Assembly (NCBI RefSeq): GCF_051903065.1
Contig: NZ_CP178438.1
DNA: 64,000 nucleotides
Source: Escherichia coli
GTDB lineage: Bacteria > Pseudomonadota > Gammaproteobacteria > Enterobacterales > Enterobacteriaceae
Reading direction: 5' to 3' (one strand)
Position 1 is the stretch's first letter, and each line of letters begins with the position of its first letter. Position numbers: made by a program. This document shows positions 47,679 through 50,600 of the stretch, one piece after another.

Positions 47679-50600
47679 TTAGATATATTGATAAGAACAA
47701 TTCTTATTTATTTGCTCGCCAGGAATTTTCGGAATAAATATGCTTTTGCATAATTCGATATATAAAGACGGTGTAGAGGAAAAGTAGCGAGAAATTCTGC
47801 ATGGTTATGCATAACCATGCAGAAATGTAAATTTAATTAATGTCTAATTCTTTTATTTTGCTCTCTTTACGTACTGTCAGCGTAGAACCCATTGAAGCGG
47901 CGATGATAGCGCCGAGCGCCAGCAGCTGTATGGGTGTCAGTGTTTCTCCGAGGAAAATCATCCCGGAAACGGCAGCCAGCGCCGGTTCCATGCTCATCAG
48001 CGTACCAAATGTCCGTGTTGGCAAACGGGTGAGGGCAATCATTTCCAGCGAATAAGGCAGAGCGGTCGAGAGAATAGCGACCGCCAGACCCAATGGAATA
48101 ACCGACCAGTGCCAGAGTGCTTCACCAGCCTGAAGCGCTCCAATTGGCACGAAAATTAACGCTGCAATCAACGAACCAATTGCCACCGTCGCAGGGCCAT
48201 GTTCCGCTCCTGCGCGTTGCCCACTTAAAATGTAAATAGCCCAACAAGCCCCGGCCCCCAGTGCCAGCGCACAGCCGGTTAAATCGACATGGGAAACGTC
48301 TTGCCCCAGAGGTAGCAGGAACCACAGACCAAGAACCGCCAGCACAACCCAGACGAAATCTACCGGGCGACGAGAAGAGAACAGCGCCACCGCCAGTGGT
48401 CCGGTGAACTCCAGCGCCACCGCAATACCCAGCGGTACCGTCTGAATAGAAAGATAAAAAAGATAATTCATCCCCCCCAGCGAAACGCCGTAAAACAACA
48501 GCGGTAATCGTTGCTCTTTGGCAAAGCGCAGTCGCCATGGCTTAAAGAACGCGATGAGGATCAGCGTTCCTAATGCCAGACGCAGCGCAGTGACACCCGG
48601 TGCGCCCACCAGAGGAAAAAGTGACTTAGCTAACGAAGCTCCACCCTGAATAGACGCCATGGCAACGAGCAATATGACTATTGGTAACCAGACCTGCATT
48701 TTACGTAATGAACCAGGCATCCTTTCTCCCACAAATATCTAGACTTAAGTAAAGCGTGGAGTGTACTGGATATACCCAATGCTGGTTGAGCATTTGTTGA
48801 AAAAATTTTCCCCCGTTTTGACTAAAATGCGCCAGGATTGATGGAATCATTAGTCTGGTGATTAGGAATAATCTGGATGAATGACAGGGAAAACATGCGT
48901 AATACTTACGCAGTTCTCTGAAAAAGTGATTTAAATTTAGATGGATAGCGGTGTATGGAAACGTTCTGTTACATGAAATGGCCCGTTAGACATCACAAAT
49001 CGCGAAGAGTTTCCCATTAATTTTTGATATATTTAAAACTTAGGACTTATTTGAATCACATTTGAGGTGGTTATGAAAAAAATTGCATGTCTTTCAGCAC
49101 TGGCCGCAGTTCTGGCTTTCACCGCAGGTACTTCCGTAGCTGCGACTTCTACCGTAACTGGCGGTTACGCACAGAGCGACGCTCAGGGCCAAATGAACAA
49201 AATGGGCGGTTTCAACCTGAAATACCGCTATGAAGAAGACAACAGCCCGCTGGGTGTGATCGGTTCTTTCACTTACACCGAGAAAAGCCGTACTGCAAGC
49301 TCTGGTGACTACAACAAAAACCAGTACTACGGCATCACTGCTGGTCCGGCTTACCGCATTAACGACTGGGCAAGCATCTACGGTGTAGTGGGTGTGGGTT
49401 ATGGTAAATTCCAGACCACTGAATACCCGACCTACAAACACGACACCAGCGACTACGGTTTCTCCTACGGTGCTGGTCTGCAGTTCAACCCGATGGAAAA
49501 CGTTGCTCTGGACTTCTCTTACGAGCAGAGCCGTATTCGTAGCGTTGACGTAGGCACCTGGATTGCCGGTGTTGGTTACCGCTTCTAATCACTTTGGTGA
49601 TATAAAAAATCCGCCTCTCGGGGCGGATTTTTGTTTTTAAGGCTTCGGGTCGAAAATATCGGTTCCGAGATGGTTGTAATCCACCTTCTGTAACTGGAAG
49701 TTGGTGATGTATATCGGCCCTGCTTTCTTCTCAGATATAAACGGGTATTTGATGTTAATTTCCTTCGCTTTAATTCCCGTCCACTGGGAGAAAAAGCCTA
49801 AGAAGTCATTGGCTGAGCGGCGGGCTTTAATCACCCGATGCGCTTTATCGTCGCTGGAAATGACCATAAAAGGCACCTGGAAATTTTGCTGATACTTATC
49901 ATCATGGGCAAGGTATTGCACGTCTTTGCCGCGCTCTTTAAAGGCCAGACCGTGGTCAGAAAAGTAAACCAGCGAGAAGCTGCTGCCGCTGTTGCGTAAC
50001 TGATCGTACAGCTTGCGCAGTAAATCGTCCGTTTGCGTCATAGTATAGAGATAGCACGACGTTTCTTTCGATTGTACAAAGGTTTCATATTTGCCTTGTG
50101 TCCGGTCGCAGGCCTGCGGATGCGAGCCCATCAGATGCAGAACAATCAGCTGCGGTTGCGAGTGCTCTTGCGCCAGCACTTGAGCGGTCATATCCAGTAA
50201 CGCTTCGTCTTTCGTGTTTTTATCTGCTTCAAAATTACCTTCTTTCAGGAAGTACACTTCATCTGCTCGTTTGGCGATGCTGGCGATAGCGGTATCGTAT
50301 TCGCCGATTTGACCCTGGTTGGAAAACCACCAGGTCTGGAAGCCCGCGCGATTTGCCAGGGTGACAAAGTTATCCTGAAACTGTGGCTTGCCATCGACAA
50401 CGCGATTGAGCGTTAAGCCAAGCGATTTCTGCGTGGAGCCACTGGCGGCAATGTAGTCAGCAAATATCAAACCGTTAACGCTGCTGGCAAACGGGGTATT
50501 GTCCCAGTGACCGCCAAAGGCACCGAGGGCATCGCGACGCGCGCTTTCACCGATCACCACCACATAGGTCTGATACTTCGGCTTAACGGCAGTGACCGTC

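What the first reader, a model, noticed from the sequence alone, without database searches (positions are those of the whole stretch)
47797..47822. Perfect 26-bp palindrome between the dps promoter and the 3' end of rhtA
ctgcatggttatg/cataaccatgcag is a perfect inverted repeat without a flanking U-tract on either strand. It could be an atypical rhtA terminator, a protein-binding site in the dps control region, or an insulator between the two.
Basis: seen in the sequence. Interest (0 to 1): 0.25.

Follow-up and report, generated by a model that had tools for sequence, protein, structure and literature searches.

The report
rhtA mRNA 3'-end hairpin (terminator)
The palindrome is real (30 bp, not 26) and encodes the stem-loop at which transcripts of the threonine exporter gene rhtA end, just upstream of the dps promoter; it is an ordinary gene-end signal already recorded in published datasets.

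Summary
The perfect palindrome is 30 bp (window 47795-47824), it is the only zero-spacer palindrome with arms of at least 8 nt in the 64-kb window, and it occurs once per E. coli genome. It starts 8 nt after the rhtA stop codon, on the same strand as rhtA and dps, at -222 to -251 from the dps start site. Published RNA 3'-end mapping (TRS, PMC10687069) puts the primary rhtA 3' terminus 7 nt after the stem. Full-length transcript data list rhtA as monocistronic. In 66 Enterobacteriaceae sequences a hairpin sits at the same place: all 13 stem pairs show compensatory changes, 92% of cells pair, and arm spacing varies from 8 to 10 nt. This points to selection on an RNA structure, not on a fixed-spacing operator. 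Most orthologues have no U-tract. The E. coli tail (UUUCUCG, C-rich and G-poor) is borderline. The element is therefore a weak intrinsic terminator, a Rho-associated protective stem-loop, or both. The perfect symmetry is specific to Escherichia and is one loop base away from the Citrobacter form. The Ozoline laboratory had already noted this 30-bp inverted repeat inside a Dps-contacted region, but its own data show the palindrome is not required for Dps binding. Verdict: ordinary and already known.

The parts
47795..47824 (-). Perfect 30-bp palindrome. In rhtA-sense RNA it forms a 13-bp stem with a 4-nt loop: UUCUGCAUGGUUA-UGCA-UAACCAUGCAGAA.
   Evidence: for the sequence.: -18.7 kcal/mol, z = -5.6, 0 of 200 shuffles fold as well; 13 of 13 pairs covary across 66 orthologous sequences.
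47797..47822 (.).
47786..47793 (-). Published primary 3' terminus of rhtA transcripts. The peak spans NC_000913.3 849,163-849,170 and the dominant position 849,165 equals window 47788, the G of ...GCAGAA-UUUCUCG, 7 nt after the last paired base.
   Evidence: TRS Supplementary Data 3 and 4, PMC10687069. Coordinates were transferred through the K-12 record with an offset of +801,377. The register of the table's sequence columns was checked against its thrL row.
47755..47794 (-). Pyrimidine-rich, C-over-G tail after the hairpin: UUUCUCGCUACUUUUCCUCUACACCGUCUUUAUAUAUCGA. It contains a short proximal U-run and is a candidate Rho-loading tract.
   Evidence: C = 11 and G = 2 in the first 30 nt, and the first 40 nt are at the 97th percentile of the window for C minus G; across orthologues the tails have C = 325 and G = 138.
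47833..48720 (-). rhtA coding sequence (threonine/homoserine exporter). The stop codon TAA is at 47835-47833, and the hairpin starts 8 nt downstream of it.
   Evidence: ORF; RefSeq annotation: 849,210-850,097.
47573..47573 (-). dps transcription start site. The palindrome lies at -222 to -251 relative to it.
   Evidence: SMRT-Cappable-seq gives a TSS at 848,950 on the reverse strand for b0812. The -10 element TATACT and the 39-nt leader can be read.
47031..47534 (-). dps coding sequence, the next gene downstream on the same strand.

Best explanation
The palindrome is the DNA image of the stem-loop at the 3' end of rhtA mRNA.

Shown:
- When rhtA is transcribed (- strand of the window), the RNA folds into a 13-bp stem with a 4-nt loop, starting 8 nt after the stop codon.
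- Steady-state rhtA transcripts end 7 nt after the stem.
- rhtA is a monocistronic unit.
- A hairpin at this position is maintained by compensatory substitutions across Enterobacteriaceae.

Inferred mechanism in E. coli:
- The hairpin, together with the weak hybrid specified by AAUUUCUCG, acts as a moderate intrinsic terminator that releases polymerase about 7-9 nt after the G-C part of the stem.
- Polymerases that escape are stopped by Rho, which loads on the C-rich, G-poor tract just downstream. Those longer RNAs are trimmed back by 3'-5' exonucleases to the same hairpin, which then protects the mRNA.
- The net effect is a defined, stable rhtA 3' end and a dps promoter shielded from upstream transcription.

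The perfect 30-bp symmetry is a by-product. In Escherichia the loop gained one base relative to the Citrobacter sedlakii form (GGTT-TGCATAACC to GGTTATGCATAACC). That added a base pair and made the loop self-complementary.

I put about 0.85 on the general claim that this is an RNA 3'-end hairpin. Within that, about 0.5 goes to intrinsic termination as the main route in E. coli and about 0.35 to Rho plus trimming. The two are not exclusive.
For: Anatomy:
- The hairpin starts 8 nt after the stop codon on the strand shared with rhtA and dps.
- It folds at -18.7 kcal/mol with z = -5.6.

3' end:
- TRS lists 'chr - 849163-849170, dominant 849165, rhtA, Primary' with the same fold and a 46-nt 3' UTR.
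- SMRT-Cappable-seq lists b0813 alone from TSS 850,130, shows no b0813|b0812 unit in the held part of the table, and gives an operon context count of 1 in both conditions.

Conservation:
- rhtA-dps synteny holds in 77 of 80 loci, and a hairpin lies 5-15 nt after the stop codon in nearly all loci with a ~300-nt spacer.
- In the stem, 91.9% of cells pair, against 31-47% when the partners are slid. All 13 pairs show double changes, and 0 of 500 shuffles reach the observed values.
- RNAalifold recovers the core of the stem.
- The stem columns hold 27 G.U wobbles on the rhtA-sense strand against 11 A.C. For the inner 11 pairs the count is 23 against 3.

Tail:
- The classical discriminant gives d = +13 for this allele and +23 for the common UUUU allele. 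The canonical dps and ompX terminators score +17 and +21.
- Only 11 of 66 orthologues score above 0, so the hairpin persists without a U-tract. This is the class described by Dar and Sorek 2018.
- C exceeds G downstream.

Origin:
- Only Escherichia has zero-spacer symmetry. Elsewhere the arm spacing is 8 or 9 nt.
Against: - The Term-seq catalogue of Adams et al. 2021 has no curated 3' end and no Rho-termination region at this position. rhtA is weakly expressed, so this may be a matter of threshold.
- In TRS the peak is significant in 2 of 3 libraries (adjusted p of 0, 0.19 and 0.003).
- The tool's terminator scan did not call the site, because the tail has 4 U rather than 5 in 8 nt.
- The base of the stem is A-U and only 5 of the 13 pairs are G-C, which is unlike strong intrinsic terminators.
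- The whole-segment strand test is weak. The sense strand is more stable in 41 sequences against 23 (p = 0.018), G.U counts are equal in free folds, and the sequences are not phylogenetically independent.
- The discriminant formula was recalled from memory.
- No direct in vitro termination data or Rho-inhibition data for this site were found.
Confidence: 0.85

Rival explanations
1. The hairpin is purely a Rho-associated protective stem-loop. It does not stop RNA polymerase. Rho terminates diffusely further downstream after loading on the C-rich tract, and PNPase or RNase II trims the RNA back to the hairpin, which only stabilises the 3' end.
For: - 55 of 66 orthologous hairpins have tails that fail the terminator discriminant, with a median tail score of 2.9, yet the hairpin is conserved.
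- C exceeds G downstream in E. coli (11 to 2 in 30 nt) and across the family (325 to 138).
- Dar and Sorek 2018 describe exactly this architecture and note that Rho dependence goes with low expression. rhtA is weakly expressed (read-start densities).
Against: - E. coli has a proximal UUU or UUUU run and a positive discriminant score comparable to the neighbouring canonical terminators.
- The 3' end at +7 fits intrinsic release equally well.
- No Rho-termination region is listed here by Adams et al..
- A Rho terminator would have to act inside the roughly 220 nt before the dps start site.
Confidence: 0.35
2. The palindrome works at the DNA level in the dps control region. It extrudes as a cruciform or is otherwise recognised by Dps or another nucleoid protein, and it influences the topology or activity of the dps promoter, as the Ozoline laboratory proposed.
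For: - Antipov et al. [quoted passage not shown]
- As single-stranded DNA the arms fold at -12.6 kcal/mol.
- The central 10 bp are 80% A+T.
- The perfect symmetry is fixed in four Escherichia species.
Against: - In the primary data (Melekhov et al. 2015) the protected bands lie about 113 and 175 nt from primer F1. These map to about 47850 and 47788 and so flank the repeat rather than cover it.
- Primer F2 starts inside the promoter-proximal arm. The F2-R2 fragment therefore lacks an intact palindrome, yet it bound Dps better than F1-R1, which contains it, and it serves as the authors' positive control.
- The authors report poor correlation between in vitro and in vivo Dps binding.
- Outside Escherichia the element is an ordinary hairpin with a 3-12-nt loop, so the conserved property is RNA pairing.
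Confidence: 0.07
3. The palindrome is the operator of a dimeric sequence-specific transcription factor that regulates dps or rhtA.
For: - Perfect dyad symmetry with TGCA motifs spaced 10 bp apart (read from the sequence).
- The inner 26 bp are invariant in the 6 E. coli variants sampled.
Against: - The distance between the conserved arms CTGCATGR and YCATGCAG is 8, 9 or 10 nt in different genera.
- In more distant genera the arms are replaced by unrelated but still complementary sequences.
- G.U wobbles are tolerated on one strand only.
- The position, -222 to -251 from Pdps and about 900 bp downstream of the rhtA start site, is not an operator position.
- No binding data were found in the literature searches.
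- There is no second copy of the motif in the window.
Confidence: 0.03
4. The palindrome is a neutral accident, for example a product of template-switch 'correction' of a quasi-palindrome, and has no function.
For: The perfect symmetry itself appears to be a one-base change from the Citrobacter state and is not needed for an RNA hairpin.
Against: - The hairpin is maintained by compensatory substitutions across many genera.
- It coincides with the mapped transcript end.
Confidence: 0.03

Closest known systems
Stem-loops that define and protect the 3' ends of Rho-dependent E. coli transcripts (Dar and Sorek 2018, PMC6061677)
   Same: - A stable hairpin lies right after the coding sequence.
- The steady-state 3' end is a few nt downstream of it.
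- The tail is U-poor in most orthologues.
- C exceeds G just downstream.
- The gene is weakly expressed.
   Different: - In E. coli the tail starts with UUU or UUUU and passes a classical intrinsic-terminator score.
- Rho dependence and exonuclease trimming have not been shown for this site.
Canonical intrinsic (Rho-independent) terminators, such as those of dps and ompX in the same window
   Same: - A hairpin of similar energy (-18 kcal/mol).
- The 3' end lies 7-9 nt after the G-C part of the stem.
- The RNA-DNA hybrid at the release point is weak and A/U-rich.
   Different: - The stem is only 38% G+C and has A-U pairs at its base.
- The U-tract is interrupted (UUUCUCG).
- There is no upstream A-tract.
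- Most orthologues in other genera have no U-tract at all.
The '30 bp inverted repeat' in the distal Dps contact region of the dps regulatory region (Melekhov et al. 2015, PMC4433220; Antipov et al. 2017, PMC5553809)
   Same: It is the same DNA element.
   Different: Those authors treat it as a DNA structural element for Dps binding. Their fragment lacking the intact repeat bound Dps better, and they did not consider its role as the rhtA 3' hairpin.
Repetitive extragenic palindromes (REP/BIME)
   Same: An extragenic palindrome that can form a 3' hairpin able to block exonucleases.
   Different: It is single-copy in each genome and has no sequence relation to REP.

Membership tests
Intrinsic (Rho-independent) terminator | A stable stem-loop immediately downstream of the gene on the sense strand | tested here: met
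   -18.7 kcal/mol, z = -5.6, 13-bp stem and 4-nt loop, starting 8 nt after the stop codon. The G+C content of the stem is modest (5 of 13 pairs).
Intrinsic (Rho-independent) terminator | A U-rich tract of 7-8 nt directly after the stem | tested here: inconclusive
   - The tail UUUCUCGC has 4 U in 8 nt and fails the scan's threshold of 5.
- The tail score is 3.97 and the discriminant is +13, against +17 and +21 for the dps and ompX terminators (formula recalled from memory).
- The common allele UUUUCUCG has 5 U in 8 nt, which meets that threshold.
- Only 11 of 66 orthologues pass the discriminant.
Intrinsic (Rho-independent) terminator | Transcript 3' ends 7-9 nt after the stem | tested here: met
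   The published dominant terminus is at 849,165, which is +7 from the last pair and +9 from the last G-C pair. The peak spans +2 to +9.
Intrinsic (Rho-independent) terminator | Factor-independent release by purified RNA polymerase | not testable with these tools
   This needs in vitro transcription.
Rho-associated protective 3' stem-loop (Dar and Sorek class) | A steady-state 3' end just after a stable hairpin that lacks a U-rich tail | tested here: inconclusive
   The hairpin and the 3' end meet the criterion. The lack of a U-rich tail holds for most genera but is borderline in E. coli.
Rho-associated protective 3' stem-loop (Dar and Sorek class) | C-over-G enrichment (rut-like) immediately downstream | tested here: met
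   C = 11 and G = 2 in 30 nt, the 97th percentile of the window. Family-wide the counts are 325 against 138.
Rho-associated protective 3' stem-loop (Dar and Sorek class) | Read-through on Rho inhibition and 3' extension in pnp or rnb mutants | not tested
   Adams et al. list no Rho region here, but expression is low. The tables of Dar and Sorek are not held.
Operator of a dimeric transcription factor | Fixed half-site spacing and sequence (not pairing) conservation among orthologues | tested here: not met
   Arm spacing is 8, 9 or 10 nt. The arms are replaced by other complementary sequences in more distant genera, and 13 of 13 pairs covary.
REP/BIME or other dispersed palindromic repeat | Many copies per genome | tested here: not met
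   The 301-bp region has a median of one place per genome. The two places found for the 40-mer are the palindrome matching itself in both orientations. The window holds one match.
Dps primary contact site / cruciform target | The palindrome is required for preferential Dps binding | tested here: not met
   This rests on published data mapped here. The F2-R2 fragment lacks the intact repeat and binds better than F1-R1, which contains it. The protected bands flank the repeat.
Rfam RNA families | A match to a curated covariance model | tested here: not met
   There is no hit over the element, even at E-values up to 1.

The most novel reading that the evidence does not exclude
In the genus Escherichia the rhtA 3' hairpin was perfected into a 30-bp palindrome with an A+T-rich centre and now has a second life as a DNA element. 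Under negative supercoiling it would extrude as a cruciform about 235 bp upstream of the dps start site. There it would serve as a docking or topology-sensing site for Dps, HU or another junction-binding protein, coupling dps promoter activity to supercoiling or to rhtA transcription.
Probability: 0.06. Interest if true: 0.45.

Novelty: already known. Interest (0 to 1): 0.1.

Why it matters
It matters little beyond tidy annotation. The result gives the rhtA gene an experimentally supported 3' end and a conserved terminator hairpin. It explains why dps is insulated from upstream transcription. It also reinterprets the '30-bp inverted repeat' discussed in the Dps-binding literature as, first of all, an RNA-level signal belonging to the neighbouring gene. 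The site is a clean small example of a gene-end hairpin that is kept across genera while its U-tract comes and goes. This fits the idea that terminators drift between intrinsic and Rho-dependent modes.

Tried and rejected
- **Rfam:** the scan at permissive E-values found nothing on the element.
- **Literature searches that returned nothing:** the literal sequence, rhtA+dps+inverted repeat, rhtA+terminator+dps, and rhtA+bicyclomycin.
- **Literature searches that returned nothing relevant:** rhtA+ProQ.
- **Other 3'-end datasets:**
  - Supplementary tables of Dar and Sorek 2018 are not held.
  - The SEnd-seq paper is not held under the id I tried.
  - The TERMITe supplements have no entry for this site.
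  - The Term-seq tables of Adams et al. have no 3' end and no Rho region here.
- **NsrR:** the central TTATGCATAA loosely resembles an NsrR half-site (from memory), but the NsrR ChIP-seq paper mentions dps only as a differentially expressed gene.
- **RpoD SELEX paper:** it mentions rhtA only for the rhtA-ompX divergent promoters.
- **Dispersed repeat:** rejected because the element is single-copy.
- **Bidirectional terminator:** rejected. The + strand tail is AAAUGUAAAUUUAAU, and the Adams et al. tables list no terminus at these coordinates on either strand.
- **Whole-segment strand test:** comparing G.U counts in free folds showed no asymmetry (60 against 59). Only the homologous-column count and the energy comparison favour the sense strand.
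Full report
**Observation**

The reported sequence is at window 47797-47822. 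The perfect dyad extends two more bases on each side, giving TTCTGCATGGTTATG/CATAACCATGCAGAA, 30 bp, at 47795-47824. It is the only zero-spacer palindrome with arms of at least 8 nt in the 64-kb window. First-order Markov simulations reached at most 11 nt. About 6e-5 palindromes with 15-nt arms are expected per window and about 4e-3 per genome. A search allowing 3 mismatches finds only this copy.

**Context**

Both neighbouring genes are on the - strand. rhtA is at 48720-47833, with its stop codon TAA at 47835-47833. dps is at 47534-47031. The order in the direction of transcription is:

1. rhtA.
2. 8 nt of spacer.
3. The palindrome.
4. About 220 nt of spacer.
5. The dps start site at window 47573, which is NC_000913.3 848,950.
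6. dps.

The palindrome is therefore at -222 to -251 from Pdps. The window is identical to E. coli O157:H7 records over the 301-bp intergenic query. K-12 MG1655 has the same palindrome and tail. The offset to NC_000913.3 is +801,377, so the palindrome is at 849,172-849,201.

**Single copy and nearly universal in E. coli**

The 301-bp intergenic region is found once in 5421 of 5426 complete genomes. The 40-mer gives two places per genome only because a palindrome matches itself in both orientations. The 71-mer is identical in 4074 of 5420 genomes.

In six sampled variants all changes lie outside the inner 26 bp. The 95-99% identity class holds 1342 genomes. Sampled members of that class change GCAGAA to GCAGAT, which shortens the palindrome to 28 bp and lengthens the run of U after the stem from 3 to 4.

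**Structure**

On either strand the RNA folds into a 13-bp stem with a 4-nt loop at -18.7 kcal/mol. On the rhtA-sense strand z = -5.6, and 0 of 200 shuffles fold as well. Rfam has no match. The tool's terminator scan does not call the site, because the tail UUUCUCGC has 4 U rather than 5 in 8 nt.

**Where rhtA transcripts end**

The TRS study of E. coli K-12 MG1655 (PMC10687069) lists a 'Primary' rhtA 3' terminus on the - strand at 849,163-849,170, with the dominant position at 849,165. It draws the same hairpin and gives a 46-nt 3' UTR. I checked the register of the table's sequence columns against its thrL attenuator row. The terminus is the G of ...GCAGAA-UUUCUCG, which is window 47788. That is 7 nt after the last paired base and 9 nt after the last G-C pair.

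SMRT-Cappable-seq (PMC6131387) lists rhtA (b0813) only as a monocistronic unit from TSS 850,130. No rhtA-dps unit appears in the held part of its table.

Against this, the Term-seq catalogue of Adams et al. 2021 has no curated 3' end and no Rho-termination region here. rhtA is weakly expressed, so the site may simply fall below their threshold.

**Comparative evidence**

A scan of one genome per species with Dps returned 80 Enterobacteriaceae loci. rhtA lies upstream of dps on the same strand in 77 of them; the other three are contigs too short to tell. Nearly every locus with a spacer of about 300 nt has a stable hairpin 5-15 nt after the rhtA stop codon.

| Genus | 5' arm of the hairpin |
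|---|---|
| Escherichia, Citrobacter, Enterobacter | TTCTGCATGG |
| Buttiauxella | TATTTACCGTGG |
| Cedecea | CATTTAATGCGG |
| Kosakonia | TTATTCAGCATGAG |
| Raoultella | GTTCTGCACGAGG |

Salmonella and Lelliottia carry close variants of the first form. In an alignment of 66 distinct sequences:

- The 13-bp stem is paired in 91.9% of cells, against 31-47% when the partners are slid by 1-3 columns.
- All 13 pairs show changes on both sides.
- No shuffle out of 500 reaches the observed values.
- RNAalifold recovers the core of the stem independently.

The distance between the conserved arms CTGCATGR and YCATGCAG is 10 nt in Escherichia and 8 or 9 nt elsewhere. Loop lengths range from 3 to 13 nt. 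A dimeric DNA-binding protein would not tolerate this; an RNA hairpin does.

In the homologous stem columns, G.U wobbles on the rhtA-sense strand outnumber A.C, which would be wobbles on the other strand, by 27 to 11. For the inner 11 pairs the count is 23 to 3. Sense-strand folds are more stable than antisense folds in 41 sequences against 23 (p = 0.018). These counts are not phylogenetically independent and are supporting evidence only.

**Which termination mode**

I scored each hairpin and tail with the d'Aubenton-Carafa discriminant. The formula was recalled from memory, so the scores are semi-quantitative.

| Sequence | Discriminant d |
|---|---|
| Window and K-12 allele | +13 |
| Common UUUU allele | +23 |
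| dps terminator (control) | +17 |
| ompX terminator (control) | +21 |

Only 11 of 66 orthologues score above zero, and the median tail score is 2.9. The hairpin is therefore conserved whether or not a U-tract follows.

This is the pattern Dar and Sorek (PMC6061677) described for Rho-dependent transcripts. They found stable 3' stem-loops without U-tracts that protect against PNPase and RNase II, with C-over-G enrichment just downstream, and they suggested such sites can drift between modes. Here the first 30 nt after the stem have 11 C and 2 G, and the first 40 nt are at the 97th percentile of the window for C minus G. Across the family the tails have 325 C and 138 G.

My best reading for E. 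coli is a moderate intrinsic terminator backed by Rho, with the hairpin also acting as an exonuclease barrier. The data do not separate the two routes.

**Origin of the perfect symmetry**

Only the Escherichia loci have a zero-spacer palindrome, with arms of 15-17 nt: E. albertii, E. coli, Escherichia sp. E1V33 and E. whittamii. Citrobacter sedlakii has TTCTGCATGGTT-TGCATAACCATGCAGAA, one base shorter. Citrobacter amalonaticus is two bases shorter.

One inserted A turns the 5-nt loop into a 4-nt loop with an extra pair and makes the whole element symmetric. This looks like a stem-extending change, possibly a template-switch 'correction' of a quasi-palindrome. That is an inference from established knowledge of such mutations, not something shown here.

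**The DNA-level reading**

The element is already in the literature. Antipov et al. [quoted passage not shown] I mapped the primers of the primary paper (Melekhov et al. 2015, PMC4433220) onto the window:

- The two protected bands, about 113 and 175 nt from primer F1, fall at about 47850 and 47788. They lie on either side of the repeat.
- Primer F2 begins inside the promoter-proximal arm.
- The F2-R2 fragment therefore lacks an intact palindrome, yet it bound Dps better than F1-R1, which contains it.
- F2-R2 is the authors' standard positive control.

The palindrome is thus not needed for Dps binding. As single-stranded DNA the arms fold at -12.6 kcal/mol. A cruciform is physically possible, but nothing here requires one.

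**Verdict**

The finding is real, well above chance, and ordinary. It is the 3'-end hairpin of rhtA and works as a terminator and insulator in front of the dps promoter. Both the inverted repeat and the 3' terminus are already recorded in published work. What this analysis adds:

- The link between those two records.
- The cross-genus covariation.
- The observation that the perfect symmetry is a feature derived within Escherichia.

Noticed in passing
L086 (E. coli tcmA_3, NZ_CP059835.1), equivalent to window ~47787: The sequence diverges 7-8 nt after the rhtA hairpin into GGTGATGCTGCCAACTTACTGATTTAGTGTATGATGGTGT. From memory this looks like an IS1 terminal inverted repeat. If so, an insertion sequence sits between the rhtA hairpin and the dps promoter in this strain.
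   Followed up: no
window 47795 (the last A of the hairpin's 3' arm on the - strand); loci L083-L085: The 95-99% identity class (1342 of 5420 genomes) includes a common E. coli allele that changes GCAGAA to GCAGAT. This shortens the palindrome to 28 bp and lengthens the U-run after the stem to UUUU. The terminator discriminant rises from +13 to +23.
   Followed up: partly
window 46958-46993 (- strand): A sub-threshold Rfam hit to ctRNA_p42d (26.9 bits against a gathering score of 50, E = 0.005) lies just downstream of the dps stop codon. It coincides with the canonical dps terminator hairpin and is probably only terminator-like.
   Followed up: no
window ~45800-45880 (- strand), downstream of glnH; ORF 45791-46291 (+): A G+C-rich hairpin CCUCUCCCCUCUGGGGAGAGG is followed by UUAGGGUGAGGGG, which resembles a boxC-type dispersed repeat (from memory). 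The overlapping + strand ORF, whose translation contains 'PNPLPRGERE', is likely an artefact of that repeat.
   Followed up: no
L013, L015 (Pseudocitrobacter); L045, L059, L068 (Trabulsiella): These genera have only 115-130 nt between rhtA and dps and no hairpin after the rhtA stop codon. The element has been lost, or was never present, where the spacer is short. Klebsiella loci have shorter spacers (216-237 nt) with unrelated hairpins.
   Followed up: no
window 47573 and 48753 (- strand): Published full-length transcript data give a dps TSS at 848,950 and an rhtA TSS at 850,130 (NC_000913.3). These correspond to window 47573 and 48753, so the GTG-initiated ORF listed up to 48732 is longer than the annotated 888-nt rhtA gene.
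   Followed up: no
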